Source of the DNA: a virus
Taxonomy: Duplodnaviria; Heunggongvirae; Uroviricota; Caudoviricetes
IMG/VR virus record: IMGVR_UViG_2541047960_000005
Direction: 5' to 3' (one strand)
DNA length: 43,137 bases
In this document: positions 15,594-22,508 of the stretch, in pieces
Layout: every line of letters begins with the position of its first letter
Numbering within the stretch: position 1 is the first letter of the stretch
Notes under the pieces: generated by a model
What the model was told of the DNA's origin: nothing
What the model saw: only the letters and a program-made list of their open reading frames with translations
Database searches by the model: none
Position numbers and translations under genes: made by a program

Positions 15594-16022
15594 ATGTATT
15601 GCCGTGCTGTACCAGTTCTTGTTTTGATATTAGCCAGTCTGACAACTGGCTGCACAAAAGATGTATCGACAAATAATTATGATGCTTCTCTGTATCACTC
15701 AGATAAATTAATAAAGTCGCAAAATTTGAGCTCATCGGAACGTACCCCTGATGCCAGTGAAGAAATCAGGCAGTATGCCATTCAGGTCAGGAAAGCCATA
15801 GAAGAACAGTTAAAGGATGCGAGTAAGTATTCAGGAAAAGAGTGTTCACTGAGAATGTATATGGCCCCGAATGGTCTTCTGCTACAGGTTAAAAGAGAAG
15901 GTGGAGACCCCGATTTATGTCGTGAAGCGATGAATGCGGTGAAGCATGCTGATATACCAGTTCCGCCGTCTCCGGAAGTATATAAAGTATTTCACAATGG
16001 AGTGCTGGATTTTAAACCGTGA
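15594..16022 (+). CDS. lipoprotein carrying a TolA C-terminal (domain III)-like domain
   Basis: Signal MYCRAVPVLVLILASLTTGC; the C-terminal ~70 aa YSGKECSLRMYMAPNGLLLQVKREGGDPDLCREAMNAVKHADIPVPPSPEVYKVFHNGVLDFKP aligns closely with my recollection of the E. coli TolA C-terminus (...YAGKTCTLRIKLAPDGMLLDIKPEGGDPALCQAALAAAKLAKIPKPPSQAVYEVFKNAPLDFKP). Confidence 0.75.
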   Translation: MYCRAVPVLVLILASLTTGCTKDVSTNNYDASLYHSDKLIKSQNLSSSERTPDASEEIRQYAIQVRKAIEEQLKDASKYSGKECSLRMYMAPNGLLLQVKREGGDPDLCREAMNAVKHADIPVPPSPEVYKVFHNGVLDFKP

Positions 16023-16368
16023 TTCTACATCTTTGCAGTAAACAATAATCATAATTGCATGTTTTTTCTGTGGTGGGGCATTTGGCTTCTGTTGCCTGCG
16101 ATGTATTGTGGTGCTGGGATCAGCCTGTAGAAAATGCACACAGGTGTGAAGTGTTAAATTCCTCACAACTCAGAAAGCGGAATGTTGTCCTGTTAGCGGC
16201 GAATTTGTTAAAAGAGAACGGCATGGTGAATCCCCCTGAGCGGAGGGGCGACTGGTGATGGTATAATCTCTGATTATCAAAACGAGAATGACGCGGGTTC
16301 AGTGTCACCGGGCTGAACTCACCGGGAGGCACCCGGCACCATGCAATGGCACATAGCGCCACTCTCCA

Positions 16369-16392
16369 GCCCCTCTCCGGAGGGGCTTTCTT
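16369..16392 (+). terminator. intrinsic terminator-like hairpin
   Basis: GCCCCTC-TCCG-GAGGGGC followed by TTTCTT. Confidence 0.4.
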
Positions 16393-16620
16393 ATGGACAA
16401 AAAAAGCCCGCGCTGGGAGACGCGGGCGGCAAGGAATAAACAATAAAACGTGAAGTAATATTTCAGCTGACGAATAATACCCTATAGTAATCACTCTGCG
16501 CAACTGCGCGGTCTTTTTCGAATTGCGGGCTGTCGTCTCTCTTCTGCCATTGTCCTGTAACTTCCGGACTTCAGCCCGCTCCTTATTTTACTCACAATAT
16601 TATCCCGGCCGGGAGGATTC

Positions 16621-18582
16621 ATGGCATTTAAACACTATGACGTGGTCAGGGCGGCATCGCCGTCAGACCTTGCGAAACGACTGACACAAAAACTGAAGGA
16701 GGGGTGGCAGCCATTTGGCAGTCCGGTGGCCATCACGCCTTATACCCTGATGCAGGCCATTGCGGCGGAAGGTGATGTCACCACACCTGTGGTGGTGAAG
16801 CCGTCGGATGGAGAAGGCGCAGTTATCAGCACCACCAGCAACCCGGAGTATTACTTTGTTGTTGCCCTGGCCGGGCAGTCAAACGGTATGGCGTATGGTG
16901 AAGGGCTTCCGCTGCCGGAGACATATGACCGTCCGGACCCGCGTATTAAACAGCTGGCGCGTCGCAGCACTGTCACGCCGGGTGGTGCGTCCTGTAACTA
17001 CAATGACATTATTCCTGCGGACCACTGCCTGCATGATGTTCAGGATTTGAGTAAGTTTTCACACCCGAAAGCCAGCGCAGCTCAGTATGGATGCGTGGGG
17101 CAGGGATTACATATCGCGAAGAAATTGTTGCCGTTTATTCCGGCGAATGCCGGTATTCTTCTGGTTCCGTGCTGCCGTGGTGGTTCTGCATTTTTGGCGG
17201 GCGATGAAGGTACCTTCAGCGAATCCACCGGCGCAAGCGAGACCTCGGCACGCTGGGGTGTAGATAAGCCACTGTACAAGGACCTGCTTACCCGTACTCA
17301 GGCCGCACTGAAGGCCAACCCTAAAAATATTCTGCTTGCAGTGGTCTGGATGCAGGGCGAGTTTGATTTGAAACAGGGTGCATACGCCACTCAGCCGGGG
17401 CTGTTTGATTCCATGGTGGAAAAATATCGTTCTGACCTGTCGGAATTCGGAGGTCAGTGTCTCGGGGGCTCTCCGTCATCAGTTCCCTGGATTTGTGGCG
17501 ACACGACCTACTACTGGAAGCAGACTTATTCTTCGCAATACGATGCGGTGTATGGTGCATACAAGACGAAATCCGCAAAAAAAATCTTCTTTGTGCCGTT
17601 TATGACGGATGAAAACGGGCGAAATGTGGGTACCAACGAGCCGTCAGAAGATCCGGATGTTGCGGATATTGGGTATTACGGAGCTGGTGGTCGAACGGAC
17701 GCCAAAACCTGGACGACGGCTGACCGTAAAACGCATTTTGGATCATGGGCACGTCGTGGGATTATTTCCGACCGTCTGGCAACGGCGATTCTTGTGCATG
17801 CCGGGAGAAACGCTGAATTCATTACCGGAAAACAGCCTGATACGGTGAAGCCCACCGGACCTTCCGGTGAAGGTACGGAGAGAGAGCCGGAAGCCCCGGT
17901 CAGTAACCGAACCCTGATGAGTCTGCTGGCGTCCGGCGAAGACCTGGCATCACAGGGCTGGCGCTATTATCACAAACCGGCGAGCGGAGACAATGTTAAC
18001 AAAAACATTGCTGAAGCGGTGGTCAGTGATGCGGGGGCTACGGGAGGTAAGGCCCTGCAACTGAATAAACCGGAAAACCACATCTGGTTTCTGGAGCATG
18101 ATGCAGCCGGACAGGGAGTGGAGTTACTGAAGAAGGGGGGACGTGTGAGCGTACGGTTTAAGTTGCCGGGTTCACTGGTGCCGAATCAGTTTGCCCTGGG
18201 CATTTACTGGCAGTTGTCGTCCCTGCCGGAGGGAGTGACGCTGGCAGAGGAAGGCAACGACATGCTGATGTCCTTCTTCCTGCAGACGGATGCGACGAAC
18301 CTGAACGCGATGCACCACAAGAAGCCGAATGCGAAGCTGGATACGTTCGGGGTCTTTGATAACGGATGGCACACACTGGCTTTTGAGTTTGCCGGAAACA
18401 ACAGCATTCAGGTGACGCCGGTACTGGATGAGAAACGGGGGACGCCGTTCACACTGGTGAAATCTCCGGCATCAGGGGCGGCGGACAAACTGCAACTGAC
18501 AGGCATATCAAAGGCGGCGACATATACGCTGCTGATTGACAGTGTGAAGGTGGAAGTGAACAACGCGGATGCTGCGGCATGA
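16621..18582 (+). CDS. nanS: prophage NanS-like sialate O-acetylesterase (SGNH/DUF303 hydrolase)
   Basis: 653 aa; GGGAGG SD; catalytic-block motif VVALAGQSNGMAYGE about 85 aa from the N-terminus; large gene after the tRNAs as in Stx-type prophages. Confidence 0.7.
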   Translation: MAFKHYDVVRAASPSDLAKRLTQKLKEGWQPFGSPVAITPYTLMQAIAAEGDVTTPVVVKPSDGEGAVISTTSNPEYYFVVALAGQSNGMAYGEGLPLPETYDRPDPRIKQLARRSTVTPGGASCNYNDIIPADHCLHDVQDLSKFSHPKASAAQYGCVGQGLHIAKKLLPFIPANAGILLVPCCRGGSAFLAGDEGTFSESTGASETSARWGVDKPLYKDLLTRTQAALKANPKNILLAVVWMQGEFDLKQGAYATQPGLFDSMVEKYRSDLSEFGGQCLGGSPSSVPWICGDTTYYWKQTYSSQYDAVYGAYKTKSAKKIFFVPFMTDENGRNVGTNEPSEDPDVADIGYYGAGGRTDAKTWTTADRKTHFGSWARRGIISDRLATAILVHAGRNAEFITGKQPDTVKPTGPSGEGTEREPEAPVSNRTLMSLLASGEDLASQGWRYYHKPASGDNVNKNIAEAVVSDAGATGGKALQLNKPENHIWFLEHDAAGQGVELLKKGGRVSVRFKLPGSLVPNQFALGIYWQLSSLPEGVTLAEEGNDMLMSFFLQTDATNLNAMHHKKPNAKLDTFGVFDNGWHTLAFEFAGNNSIQVTPVLDEKRGTPFTLVKSPASGAADKLQLTGISKAATYTLLIDSVKVEVNNADAAA

Positions 18583-21169: not shown

Positions 21170-21375
21170 CTGACCTTGAGTAAGGCAAGGGAGAAATTAT
21201 GGTGAGGGAGGTGCTTTCCCTGTGAGGAAGTATAAAAGATTCTTTCTGAGGTTGTCCATTATGAAAGGCATTGAAGTGGAGACGCCAGCCTGTCTGGATT
21301 TAACAAGAGCGGCAGCCTTTGCCATTCGTATTATAGCCATTGCTGTTCTGATCTGGGCAATCCGTTGGTGGTGAA

Positions 21376-21843
21376 ATGAACCGCGTTCTGTGTGTGGTCA
21401 TCATTGCTCTGCTGGTGGCCTGTGGTGCGCTTAGTCTGGGGCTGAATCATTACCGCGATAACGCCATCACTTACAAAGCGCAGCGCGATAAAAAAGCCAG
21501 AGAGCTGGAGCTGGCAAATGCAACCATTACTGATATGCAGCAGCGCCAGCGTGATGTTGCTGCACTTGATGCCAGATACTCGAGGGAATTAGCCGATGCG
21601 AGAGCTGAAAATGAAACTCTGCGCGCTGATGTTGCCGCTGGTCGTAAGCGCCTGCGGATCAACGCCACCTGCCCCGGTACCGTGCGTGAAGCCACCGGCA
21701 CCTCCGGCGTGGATAATGCAACCGGCCCCCGACTGGCAGACACCGCTGAACGGGATTATTTCACTCTCAGAGAGCGGTTGATGACGATGCAGAAGCAACT
21801 GGAAGTGGCGCAGGAATATATCCGCACTCAGTGCCTGAAATAA
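21376..21843 (+). CDS. Rz: Rz inner-membrane spanin
   Basis: N-terminal TM helix then coiled-coil periplasmic domain; contains an embedded +1-frame lipoprotein gene. Confidence 0.8.
21596..21781 (+). CDS. Rz1: Rz1 outer-membrane spanin lipoprotein, embedded within Rz
   Basis: [20 protein letters not shown] lipobox then Pro-rich [23 protein letters not shown] before ATG 21596. Confidence 0.65.
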
Positions 21844-22181
21844 GTTTTGCTGATGCGCGGTATTGTCGCCGTATCCCCGCATTAACAGAGACCGCAGCCC
21901 GACAGGGAGACTCCTCTGCGCGAGTGTGCGGGGATAATCAAAAACGATACACACCGGGGTTTACCGCGTTAACGGAGCGCGGCGTTGTCCCCTCATGGTC
22001 GCTGGTCCGGTGCGATGGTGGAAGAAACCGGACGATGTGTTACCTCGCAAGCCCTGTTATGTCATGTGTCTGATTTGTGATTTAAGCCGGATAATTGTCG
22101 TTGCCATTAAGCAGAGGATTAATGATCGACAGGGTGGCATTGTTAGAATAAGACTTATTCTTATCTGTGCCGGGAATGAAA

Positions 22182-22508
22182 ATGAAAAGAAATCTTCCGT
22201 TAATTATTTTGTTGTCTTCTCTGGTTATGGGCTGTACGCAACATAAAACAGATATGCCCCGACAGTTGGTTAAGGCATTACCACAATATCCGGCCTATGC
22301 AGCGGCAAATTATATAAAGGGACGGGTTGATGTGAAGTTTGATATTGGTGCTGATGGTACTGTCACCCGAATTGAGTTTATCCGTTCAGAGCCGCACCAT
22401 TTGTTTGATGAGCAGGTTGTAAAGGCGATGGCAAAATGGCGATTTGAGAAGGACAGGCCGTGTAAAGGCGTGAAGAAAACGTTTATCTTTAGTCCTTCTG
22501 CACCCTGA
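22182..22508 (+). CDS. lipoprotein carrying a TonB C-terminal-domain-like fold
   Basis: Signal MKRNLPLIILLSSLVMGC; mature part PQYPAYAAANYIKGRVDVKFDIGADGTVTRIEFIRSEPHHLFDEQVVKAMAKWRFEKDRP aligns closely with my recollection of the E. coli TonB C-terminal domain ([60 protein letters not shown]). Confidence 0.75.
   Translation: MKRNLPLIILLSSLVMGCTQHKTDMPRQLVKALPQYPAYAAANYIKGRVDVKFDIGADGTVTRIEFIRSEPHHLFDEQVVKAMAKWRFEKDRPCKGVKKTFIFSPSAP

What the first reader, a model, noticed from the sequence alone, without database searches (positions are those of the whole stretch)
15594..22508. One prophage carries tethered mimics of both host import energy transducers (TolA-CTD and TonB-CTD) - candidate dual exclusion module
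The two cargo lipoproteins sit at classical moron slots of the late operon (the Stx slot after Q/tRNAs, and the bor slot after the spanins). Each is a signal/lipobox-tethered copy of the periplasmic C-terminal domain of TolA or TonB, the two systems exploited by essentially all colicins and many phages for outer-membrane translocation. Holding both together suggests a coordinated function: broad blockade of Tol- and Ton-dependent import, or protection of lysing cells and progeny. The pairing is the unusual part; the proposed function is inference.
Basis: inference. Interest (0 to 1): 0.8.

Follow-up and report, generated by a model that had tools for sequence, protein, structure and literature searches.

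The report
Prophage lipoprotein copies of TolA/TonB ends
An E. coli lambdoid prophage carries two small cargo genes, each a lipoprotein-tethered copy of the ligand-binding end of the host TolA or TonB protein; both are real, common, already annotated and untested, they most likely act as separate decoys, and their pairing is frequent only for this particular TolA-like variant.

Summary
ORF 15594-16022 (142 aa) has a signal peptide and lipobox (LTTG|C), a ~32-residue linker, and a domain that aligns without gaps to E. coli TolA 333-421 (54% identity, both cysteines kept). ORF 22182-22508 (108 aa) has a lipobox (VMG|C) and a domain aligning without gaps to TonB 153-231 (39%).

Both are low-GC inserts in the late region of a lambdoid prophage at mlrA/yehV and are under purifying selection (dN/dS 0.40 and 0.13).

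Neither is rare among 5,426 complete E. coli genomes. TolA-like genes occur in 897 and the TonB-like gene in 415, including O157:H7 EDL933, Stx1a phages and classical phage 21.

The pair is not obligate:
- 71% of TonB-like genomes have no TolA-like gene.
- The main TolA-like clade (~774 genomes) almost never co-occurs with the TonB-like gene.
- The window's own TolA-like allele co-occurs with it in 110 of 123 genomes, and in the same prophage in every complete genome inspected. Linkage or shared descent is not excluded.

The most likely mechanism is inferred: outer-membrane-anchored, energy-uncoupled decoys that compete for TolA-box or TonB-box ligands. No functional literature was found.

The parts
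15594..16022 (+). TolA-CTD lipoprotein gene (142 aa). Residues 1-20 are the signal peptide with lipobox LTTG|C (Cys20, Thr at +2). Residues 21-52 are a low-confidence linker. Residues 53-142 are the TolA domain III homologue.
22182..22508 (+). TonB-CTD lipoprotein gene (108 aa by the RefSeq start; alternative in-frame starts are GTG 22167 and ATG 22176). It has the lipobox VMG|C (Thr at +2), a short linker, and a TonB C-terminal domain homologue.
15434..15463 (+). Weak sigma-70-like promoter match (TTTGCA-18-TATTAT, 9/12) 130 nt upstream of the TolA-like gene. It is a candidate only.
   Evidence: The scan found no more sites than shuffled sequence gives.
22141..22149 (+). Extended -10-like element TGTTAGAAT, 33 nt upstream of the TonB-like start codon. 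It is conserved as TGTCAGAAT in the 72%-identical variant. It is a candidate moron promoter.
   Evidence: sequence reading and alignment; not tested
12670..13053 (+). Late antiterminator Q (quuD type). It marks the start of the late region.
   Evidence: coordinates converted from L001 with an offset of 2901
15154..15315 (+). Two phage tRNA genes (CAU anticodon, annotated Ile in RefSeq, and Arg-UCG) just upstream of the TolA-like cargo, as in Stx phages.
16192..16398 (+). STnc100 sRNA homologue with its terminator, lying between the TolA-like gene and nanS-p.
   Evidence: 162 bits against a gathering score of 47; terminator
16621..18582 (+). nanS-p-type SASA esterase (DUF1737 + SASA + DUF6645). 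It is the conserved gene that follows the Stx slot.
19207..21843 (+). Lysis cassette: P21-type class II holin, DUF1327/YdfR fragments, lysozyme, and Rz (21376-21843) with embedded Rz1 (21596-21781).
22650..23248 (.). ylcI/ynfO (minus strand) and HNH endonuclease (plus strand). This is the module that the TonB-like insert abuts. The module exists far more often without the insert.

Best explanation
These are two separate lysogenic-conversion (moron-type) cargo genes of a lambdoid prophage.

Anatomy:
- Each encodes a small lipoprotein. With Thr at +2 it should be sorted by Lol to the inner leaflet of the outer membrane.
- The periplasmic part of each is an old, diverged, phage-borne copy of the ligand-binding C-terminal domain of TolA (domain III) or TonB.
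- Both lack the N-terminal membrane anchor and the periplasm-spanning part, so they cannot be coupled to TolQR or ExbBD.

Most likely mechanism (inferred): energy-uncoupled decoys.
- The TolA-like protein would capture TolA-box ligands: the TolB N-terminus, group A colicin translocation domains, and filamentous-phage g3p.
- The TonB-like protein would occupy TonB boxes of outer-membrane transporters and of group B colicins.
- The expected result is tolerance to Tol- or Ton-dependent colicins and phages, possibly at some cost to envelope integrity or iron uptake.

Each works on its own. Their joint presence here reflects mosaic assortment and linkage within one late-region lineage, not an obligate two-gene system.

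Shown: domain identity, lipoprotein signal, conservation, purifying selection and distribution. Inferred: outer-membrane location, ligand competition and phenotype.
For: Domain identity:
- Pfam and NCBIfam hits.
- Gapless alignments to solved TolAIII and TonB-CTD structures.
- TolAIII and TonB-CTD are the top fold matches.
- The TolA disulfide cysteines (C363/C388) and the C-terminal LDFKP are kept.
- Counting along the alignment, TonB core residues Y163, F180, G186, F202, W213 and F230 are kept.

No anchor or spanning domain:
- The proteins are 142 and 108 aa long.
- The full-length equivalog models score far below their cut-offs (104.6 against 213 for TolA; 74 against 315 for TonB).

Lipobox conservation across diverged relatives, including a Klebsiella phage.

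Purifying selection: dN/dS is 0.40 overall and 0.375 in the domain for the TolA-like gene, and 0.13 for the TonB-like gene.

Moron hallmarks:
- GC is 0.42-0.43 against 0.52-0.58 in the flanks.
- Both genes show presence/absence polymorphism in otherwise similar late regions.
- A -10-like element upstream of the TonB-like gene is conserved.

Independence: the distribution figures.

Mechanistic background:
- TolAIII binds ColA, g3p and TolB by beta-strand addition (PMC3365938; PMC8928145).
- From my own knowledge, papers not held here: periplasmic TolAIII made cells leaky and tolerant to colicins and filamentous phage (Levengood-Freyermuth et al. 1993).
- Also from my own knowledge: periplasmic TonB fragments inhibited FhuA/FecA transport and phi80/colicin M action (Howard et al. 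2001).
Against: - No experiment or paper on either phage protein was found in ten literature searches.
- Neither protein matches a PADLOC defence model.
- Expression in the lysogen is not shown. The promoter matches are weak, and both genes lie in the Q-dependent late transcript. They may therefore be made mainly during lytic growth.
- A TonB decoy should impair iron uptake, yet the gene sits in healthy lineages such as O157:H7.
- Some ligand-contact positions differ from the host proteins: TolA K368Y, D377Q and P380R in the ColA-binding strand, and TonB Q160L and R166Y.
- Standalone TolA-CTD lipoproteins also occur in ordinary chromosomal contexts. The fold may therefore serve another envelope role.
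- The very strong association of this TolA-like allele with the TonB-like gene is not explained by the 'independent' part of this statement unless linkage accounts for it.
Confidence: 0.5

Rival explanations
1. Coordinated dual exclusion module. The two lipoproteins are co-selected to block both import routes at once, giving broad tolerance to group A and group B colicins and to Tol- and Ton-dependent phages.
For: - The window's TolA-like allele group co-occurs with the TonB-like gene in 110 of 123 genomes, an odds ratio of 139.
- The two are in the same prophage in GN02050, O22:H8 154, O104:H21 and LZSFT34. Three of these have a different annotated Q and different early genes from GN02050, and their intervening genes are diverged (nanS about 72-83% nucleotide identity).
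- Of the genomes that carry the ylcI-HNH module, only 400 of 1,464 have the TonB-like insert. Simple module sharing therefore does not predict the pairing.
- The two genes show discordant divergence between the same two prophages: dS is 0.14 for the TolA-like gene and 0.014 for the TonB-like gene.
Against: - 295 of 415 TonB-like genomes lack any TolA-like gene.
- The main TolA-like clade is negatively associated with the TonB-like gene, with an odds ratio of 0.14.
- Phage 21, EDL933 and Stx1a phages carry the TonB-like gene alone. mEp460 carries TolA-like genes alone.
- Three viral contigs have this TolA-like allele with a different Rz and packaging module and no TonB-like gene.
- The genomes are clonally related, and double crossovers that replace the middle segment leave both ends linked.
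- The genes share no operon structure. They are 6-10 kb apart with the whole lysis cassette between them.
Confidence: 0.15
2. Late-phase lysis or release accessories. Both are made from the Q-antiterminated late transcript. They would sabotage Tol-Pal and Ton function in the dying cell, loosening the outer membrane, raising vesiculation or leakage, or protecting progeny from abortive adsorption. They would not protect the lysogen.
For: - Both genes lie on the late strand, downstream of Q and the tRNAs, or directly after Rz/Rz1.
- The TonB-like gene keeps its place just after the lysis cassette in E. coli, phage 21 and a Klebsiella phage at 40% identity.
- PHROGs files it in a family labelled lysis / 'Rz-like spanin'.
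- From my own knowledge (Levengood-Freyermuth 1993): periplasmic TolAIII causes periplasmic leakage.
Against: - A complete holin, endolysin and Rz/Rz1 set is already present, so nothing is missing from the lysis pathway.
- The PHROG label is probably positional. The protein has a globular TonB_C domain and no Rz1 match.
- The low GC, long upstream spacers and a conserved -10-like element look like autonomous morons.
- Lipoprotein maturation and outer-membrane sorting in the last minutes before lysis leave little time to act.
Confidence: 0.2
3. Envelope or virulence factors unrelated to ligand competition. Examples are Bor/Iss-like serum resistance, peptidoglycan or outer-membrane protein binding, or a structural role shared with chromosomal standalone TolA-CTD lipoproteins.
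For: - The TonB-like gene sits beside or in place of bor/iss.
- In the 50%-identity representative library, 90 of the top 149 TolA-like hits are short proteins and at least 49 have a lipobox.
- Some of these lie in non-phage neighbourhoods, for example next to an osmoprotectant ABC transporter.
Against: - The domains keep the fold and much of the known interaction surface of TolAIII and TonB-CTD. These domains are known as partner-binding modules.
- There is no similarity to Bor/Iss or any other family.
Confidence: 0.1
4. Decaying fragments of captured host genes with no function.
For: - Many truncated or frameshifted copies exist in databases.
- PGAP names ORF1 'TolA', as if it were a partial copy of the host gene.
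Against: - The length is constant at 142 and 108 aa, and the signal peptide and lipobox are kept across 57-72%-identical relatives.
- dN/dS is well below 1.
- Identity to E. coli TolA and TonB is only 54% and 39%, and GC is much lower, so these are not recent captures.
- The genes are present in hundreds of genomes and in viable phages.
Confidence: 0.03

Closest known systems
E. coli TolA domain III (TolAIII; PDB 1TOL, 1S62, 3QDP/3QDR)
   Same: - Same fold and family: PF06519 at 81.9 bits.
- Gapless 89-residue alignment to TolA 333-421 at 54% identity.
- The disulfide cysteines and the C-terminal LDFKP are kept.
   Different: - There is no N-terminal membrane anchor and no long helical domain II, so it cannot couple to TolQR.
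- It has a lipoprotein signal instead, which predicts the opposite membrane anchor.
- The ColA-binding strand is altered: LLDIKP becomes LLQVKR, and K368 becomes Y.
- The RefSeq name 'cell envelope integrity protein TolA' overstates what it is.
E. coli TonB C-terminal domain (PDB 1U07, 2GSK, 2GRX)
   Same: - PF03544 and TIGR01352 hits.
- Gapless alignment to TonB 153-231.
- The conserved aromatic core and the PQYP motif are kept.
- Strand beta3, which pairs with TonB boxes, is present.
   Different: - Identity is 39%.
- There is no transmembrane anchor (His20) and no proline-rich spacer.
- It is a lipoprotein.
- Q160 is Leu and R166 is Tyr.
- The last ~8 residues of TonB are missing.
Phage outer-membrane lipoproteins that exclude other phages: Cor (phi80/N15/HK022) and Llp (T5); also Bor/Iss
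   Same: All are small lipoproteins encoded by temperate or lytic coliphages, placed among late genes. By their known or proposed roles they alter outer-membrane import functions (own knowledge). Bor sits next to the TonB-like gene in phage 21.
   Different: - No sequence similarity was found.
- Cor and Llp act on the receptor FhuA itself. The proteins here would mimic the energy transducer, and so could affect whole classes of receptors.
- Their function is untested.
Experimental periplasmic TolAIII and TonB-CTD fragments (Levengood-Freyermuth 1993; Howard 2001; own knowledge, papers not held)
   Same: Both are soluble C-terminal domains delivered to the periplasm without their anchors. They act as dominant-negative competitors and give colicin or phage tolerance. 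This is the mechanism proposed here.
   Different: Those were laboratory constructs of the host's own sequence, overexpressed and not lipid-anchored. The proteins here are natural, diverged, lipoprotein-tethered and phage-borne.
Same genes in public records: phage 21 gp73 'TonB C-terminal domain protein' (OL657228), EDL933 'TonB family protein', and mEp460_ev081 'TolA protein'
   Same: They are direct homologues: the TonB-like proteins are 72-100% identical and the TolA-like protein is 68% identical. They sit in the same genomic positions.
   Different: These are annotations only. No function is assigned, and none of the records has both genes.

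Membership tests
TolA C-terminal domain family (Pfam PF06519 / TolAIII fold) | Profile match above the curated threshold, and alignment to solved TolAIII over the whole domain | tested here: met
   81.9 bits against 25. Gapless alignment to TolA 333-421 at 54% identity. TolAIII structures are the top fold hits.
TolA C-terminal domain family (Pfam PF06519 / TolAIII fold) | Conserved disulfide pair (E. coli C363/C388) | tested here: met
   Both cysteines align. 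C84 is invariant and C109 nearly invariant in A1.
Full-length TolA (Tol-Pal energy transducer) | N-terminal membrane anchor plus a long helical domain II that couples to TolQR | tested here: not met
   The protein is only 142 aa. The equivalog NF007065 scores 104.6 against a cut-off of 213 and matches only model positions 297-386. TIGR02794 passes its cut-off (74.2 against 59.45) on the C-terminal part alone, which probably explains the RefSeq name.
TonB C-terminal domain family (PF03544 / TIGR01352) | Profile match above threshold, and alignment to solved TonB-CTD including strand beta3 | tested here: met
   54.7 bits against 24.6, and 54.4 against 27.1. Gapless alignment to TonB 153-231. 1U07, 2GSK and 2GRX are the top fold hits.
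Full-length TonB (Ton energy transducer) | N-terminal signal anchor and a proline-rich spacer | tested here: not met
   The protein is 108 aa. All TonB equivalog models score far below their cut-offs (best 74 against 315) and match only their C-terminal ~80 positions.
Bacterial lipoproteins (lipobox, Lgt/LspA/Lnt pathway) | Signal peptide with a positive N-region, a hydrophobic core and the [LVI..][ASTVI..][GAS]-Cys lipobox, conserved in relatives | tested here: met
   LTTG|C and VMG|C are read directly from the sequence. Gly-Cys is nearly invariant in A1 and A2. The Klebsiella phage homologue has LLG|C.
Bacterial lipoproteins (lipobox, Lgt/LspA/Lnt pathway) | Actual lipid modification and outer-membrane sorting | not testable with these tools
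   Thr at +2 (no Asp) predicts Lol-dependent outer-membrane sorting by the established +2 rule. This is inference only.
Phage morons (autonomous cargo units) | Composition different from the flanks, and presence/absence between otherwise homologous phage regions | tested here: met
   GC is 0.42-0.43 against 0.52-0.58 in the flanks. The slots hold other cargo or none in related prophages.
Phage morons (autonomous cargo units) | Own promoter and terminator | tested here: inconclusive
   There are only weak consensus matches and a conserved extended -10-like element upstream of the TonB-like gene. The terminator after the TolA-like gene belongs to STnc100.
Known superinfection-exclusion or defence proteins (Cor, Llp, PADLOC systems) | Sequence membership in a described exclusion or defence family | tested here: not met
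   No PADLOC hit. PHROGs gives 'unknown function' for the TolA-like protein and a lysis-labelled family for the TonB-like protein. Pfam gives only TolA and TonB domains.
Spanins (PHROG phrog_1267 label 'Rz-like spanin') | An o-spanin or i-spanin pair partner required for outer-membrane disruption | tested here: not met
   A complete Rz (PF03245, 169 bits) with embedded Rz1 (PF06085, 75 bits) lies upstream. The TonB-like protein matches neither.
Two-gene 'dual exclusion module' | The two genes are co-conserved wherever either occurs | tested here: not met
   TonB-like is in 415 genomes, 295 of them without any TolA-like gene. The main TolA-like clade has an odds ratio of 0.14. Only the window's allele group is tightly associated, at 110 of 123 genomes with an odds ratio of 139.

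The most novel reading that the evidence does not exclude
The near-constant pairing of this particular TolA-like allele with the TonB-like gene (110 of 123 genomes) persists even though Q, the early genes and the intervening late genes have been replaced. It may therefore reflect selection for a combined shield. In that reading, two outer-membrane-anchored mimics of the two envelope energy transducers together make the lysogen tolerant to both classes of colicins and to both Tol- and Ton-dependent phages. That would be an exclusion strategy based on molecular mimicry of host machinery, not on receptor masking.
Probability: 0.15. Interest if true: 0.75.

Novelty: new variant of a known kind. 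Interest (0 to 1): 0.5.

Why it matters
If the decoy mechanism holds, temperate coliphages would protect their hosts by mimicking the ligand-binding ends of TolA and TonB. That differs from plugging single receptors as Cor and Llp do, and it could blunt whole classes of colicins, microcins, siderophore-antibiotic conjugates and phages at once.

The genes are common: about 17% and 8% of complete E. coli genomes. They occur in clinically important lineages (O157:H7, O145, O103, O104:H21, ExPEC) and in tractable phages (phage 21, mEp460). The idea is therefore cheap to test. It also bears on colicin- and phage-based therapies, and on why natural colicin insensitivity is so frequent.

There is an annotation point as well. 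RefSeq labels a 142-aa lipoprotein as 'TolA'.

Tried and rejected
1. Counting same-prophage pairs with a query made of gene 1, a long N filler and gene 2 was too long to submit. I replaced it with an inclusion-exclusion count on concatenated probes, which resolves genomes, not prophages. Five annotated regions and the viral contigs were then checked by hand.

2. Ten literature searches found nothing on these phage proteins. Howard 2001 and Levengood-Freyermuth 1993 are not held. Their results are cited from memory only.

3. The scan of species-representative genomes returned a single Shigella locus because the search patterns were narrow. It says little about other genera.

4. The AlphaFold models from shallow alignments were mediocre (pLDDT 56 and 61). 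I used them only to confirm the top fold matches.

5. A Fur-box or operator reading of the palindrome GAATAAGACTTATTC upstream of the TonB-like gene was dropped. The second half is not conserved in the 72% variant.

6. I tried to type the tail-tip (J) receptor domain, to ask whether the prophage itself uses a TonB-dependent receptor. The attempt failed on the reading frame and was not pursued. The gene also runs off the window.

7. I did not accept the PHROG label 'Rz-like spanin' for the TonB-like protein.

Full report
**What the window is**

The 7.6 kb around the finding is 99.8% identical to a prophage of E. coli GN02050 and several other human isolates. In that genome the prophage sits next to mlrA (yehV). 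Its gene order is integrase, early genes, Q (quuD), a reverse-strand OmpC-family porin, a methylase fragment, two tRNAs, 'tolA', a SASA esterase (nanS-p type), DUF1378/DUF826, a P21-type holin, lysozyme, Rz/Rz1, 'TonB family protein', ylcI, HNH, terminase, and HK97-like head and lambda-like tail genes. Stx phages share this late-region backbone and carry stx where the 'tolA' gene lies.

**Check of the observation**

ORF1 (15594-16022, 142 aa):
- It matches Pfam TolA C-terminal (E = 3.8e-23).
- Residues 54-142 align without a gap to E. coli TolA 333-421, right to the shared C-terminus LDFKP. Identity is 54%. Both disulfide cysteines are kept.

- It matches TonB_C (E = 1.4e-14) and TIGR01352.
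- It aligns without a gap to TonB 153-231 at 39% identity.
- Y163, F180, G186, F202, W213 and F230 are kept. Q160 is Leu and R166 is Tyr.

Evidence common to both:
- Each begins with a charged N-terminus, a hydrophobic core and a lipobox (LTTG|C and VMG|C). Thr at +2 predicts outer-membrane sorting by the +2 rule (inference).
- The Gly-Cys is nearly invariant among relatives down to about 57-65% identity. It recurs in a 40%-identical Klebsiella phage homologue.
- The structure models are only moderately confident (pLDDT 56 and 61). They show a disordered 1-52 segment in ORF1 and the expected secondary-structure order.
- Their best PDB matches are TolAIII and TonB-CTD structures.

One refinement: in phage 21 the TonB-like gene lies beside bor, not instead of it.

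**Are they functional genes?**

- Between the window allele and the 68%-identical TolA-like clade, dN/dS is 0.40 overall and 0.375 in the domain.
- Between the window TonB-like gene and its 72% variant, dN/dS is 0.13 with dS about 1.4.
- Both genes have GC of 0.42-0.43, against 0.52-0.58 in the neighbouring late genes.
- They are too diverged from E. coli tolA and tonB to be recent captures.
- Many truncated copies exist in databases, but the intact length and signal are conserved.

They are old, maintained phage genes, not debris.

**Distribution**

Among 5,426 complete E. coli genomes:
- A TolA-like gene is found in 897.
- The TonB-like gene is found in 415, with at least 99% identity in 331 of them. 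These include O157:H7 EDL933 and strains of O145, O103 and O111.

Phage records:
- Fifteen carry the TonB-like gene. They include phage 21 ('TonB C-terminal domain protein'), Stx1a-converting phages, JLK-2012, ev017 ('Partial tonB-like membrane protein encoded within prophage CP-933N') and a Klebsiella phage.
- One phage record, mEp460_ev081, carries TolA-like genes.

Beyond E. coli:
- A search of 1.84 billion cluster representatives found 330 relatives of the TolA-like protein.
- Of the best 149, 90 are 165 aa or shorter, and at least 49 have a lipobox.
- Some lie in ordinary chromosomal neighbourhoods.

Standalone TolA-CTD lipoproteins are therefore a large, diverse and unstudied family.

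**The pairing**

Inclusion-exclusion on concatenated probes gives these counts:
- The union of the two gene sets is 1,192 genomes, so 120 genomes have both. Chance expectation is 69, and the odds ratio is 2.2.
- The window's allele group, detected with a probe specific to its 5' end, is in 123 genomes.
- Its union with the TonB-like set is 428, so 110 of the 123 also carry the TonB-like gene. The odds ratio is 139.
- The remaining ~774 TolA-like genomes share only ~10 with the TonB-like set, an odds ratio of 0.14.
- That second clade is usually a tandem of two different TolA-CTD lipoproteins. It sits beside a lambda-type essD/rrrD/rzpD cassette with iss/bor.

Same-prophage pairing:
- It was verified in GN02050, O22:H8 154, O104:H21 and LZSFT34.
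- Compared with GN02050, the other three have different annotated Q and early genes. The distance between the two genes is 6-10 kb, and the genes in between are diverged.
- In viral contigs, 6 of 30 TonB-like loci with enough upstream sequence have a TolA-like gene upstream.
- Of the loci with this allele group and enough downstream sequence, 6 of 9 informative ones have the TonB-like gene downstream. None of 31 from the other clade does.

The TonB-like gene without a TolA-like partner:
- It accompanies TerB (EDL933), Stx1, a PmrD-like gene, or no slot cargo at all (phage 21).
- The ylcI-HNH module it abuts is in 1,464 genomes, but only 400 of them have the insert.

The two genes are separable units. 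The window's TolA-like allele is nested within TonB-like-bearing late regions. This fits an insertion into a lineage that already had the TonB-like gene, followed by linked inheritance. Co-selection cannot be excluded. The genomes are not independent samples, so the P-values overstate the case.

**How it most likely works**

TolAIII and TonB-CTD are partner-binding modules that recruit ligands by beta-strand addition. The known ligands are TolB, g3p and colicins A and N for TolAIII, and TonB boxes for TonB-CTD (PMC3365938; PMC8928145).

The phage proteins keep these domains but lack the membrane anchor and spanning region needed for energy coupling. They are predicted to hang from the outer membrane on short linkers. 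That places them where colicin translocation domains, the TolB N-terminus and TonB boxes emerge.

The simplest reading is competitive, non-productive binding, in other words decoys. From my own knowledge, laboratory precedents exist:
- Periplasmic TolAIII causes leakiness and tolerance to colicins and filamentous phage (Levengood-Freyermuth 1993).
- Periplasmic TonB fragments block FhuA/FecA-dependent uptake, phi80 and colicin M (Howard 2001).

Points of doubt:
- Neither lysogenic expression nor any phenotype is shown.
- Promoter evidence is weak, apart from a conserved extended -10-like TGTTAGAAT upstream of the TonB-like gene.
- Both genes are also within the late transcript. A late-phase role such as envelope loosening or progeny protection is the main rival.
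- Some contact residues differ from the host proteins (K368Y, D377Q and P380R in the TolA domain; Q160L and R166Y in the TonB domain). This may mean altered specificity.

**Comparison with what is known**

- The proteins are members of the TolA_C and TonB_C domain families. They are not TolA or TonB orthologues.
- The RefSeq name 'cell envelope integrity protein TolA' probably arises because TIGR02794 passes its cut-off on the C-terminal part alone.
- They are not members of any described exclusion or defence family, and they are not spanins.
- In function they most resemble the phage lipoproteins Cor and Llp. Their presumed target would be the transducer-ligand interface, not a single receptor.
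- The genes themselves are already in public annotation (phage 21, EDL933, mEp460).
- Within the library searched, I found no paper addressing their function.

**Verdict**

I rate it a new variant of a known kind (moron-encoded envelope lipoproteins) and of moderate interest. It is easy to test in phage 21, mEp460 or this prophage.

Noticed in passing
window 13242-14384 (-): A phage-borne OmpC-family porin gene lies between Q and the methylase fragment, on the opposite strand, with low GC (0.38-0.44). RefSeq annotates it 'porin OmpC', and it matches phrog_410. This makes a third envelope-directed cargo gene in the same prophage. It resembles the Lc/NmpC porins of PA-2 and DLP12 (own knowledge).
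   Followed up: partly
window 16192-16398 (+): A full-length match to the sRNA family STnc100 (RF02076, 162 bits) lies between the TolA-like gene and nanS-p and ends in a strong terminator. The terminator I first took for the moron's own belongs to this sRNA.
   Followed up: partly
window 6563-6751 (+): There are adjacent Rfam matches to isrK (RF01394) and the C4 antisense RNA (RF01695) in the early region. These elements are known from P1/P7-type immunity and from Gifsy and O157 prophages (own knowledge).
   Followed up: no
L003 9933-10907 (E. coli SCEC020022 prophage); also phage mEp460_ev081: The commoner TolA-like clade comes as a tandem of two different TolA-CTD lipoproteins: one of 142 aa with lipobox IIIG|C, and a much more diverged one of 124 aa with VAG|C. 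Both fall in phrog_5772. Why two are kept side by side is unexplained.
   Followed up: partly
window 15594-16022; RefSeq WP_000271630.1: PGAP names this 142-aa lipoprotein 'tolA: cell envelope integrity protein TolA'. TIGR02794 passes its cut-off (74.2 against 59.45) on the C-terminal domain alone, which probably accounts for the name. This looks like a systematic over-annotation affecting hundreds of genomes.
   Followed up: yes
window 22182-22508; PHROGs phrog_1267: PHROGs places the TonB-like lipoprotein in a family labelled 'Rz-like spanin' (lysis). A complete Rz/Rz1 pair lies just upstream. The label is probably inherited from its position next to the spanins.
   Followed up: partly
window 15594-16022 compared with L165 11001-11429: Between pair-bearing prophages the TolA-like coding region is more diverged (94-95.5% nucleotide identity, with changes clustered in the C-terminal third) than its upstream flank and the tRNAs (97.5-100%). 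The TonB-like gene is 99-100% identical. This could reflect allele recombination or diversifying pressure on the TolA-like C-terminus.
   Followed up: partly
window 15154-15229: ARAGORN calls this tRNA Met (anticodon CAT), while RefSeq annotates the identical gene as tRNA-Ile. That fits a lysidine-modified ileX-type tRNA, as in Stx phages (own knowledge).
   Followed up: no
window 19481-20469: Between the holin and the lysozyme are a DUF1327/YdfR ORF (162 aa) and a 161-aa ORF that matches only the C-terminal half of phrog_1085. RefSeq marks the YdfR gene as truncated in the near-identical GN02050 prophage. This looks like a disrupted or rearranged insert inside the lysis cassette.
   Followed up: no
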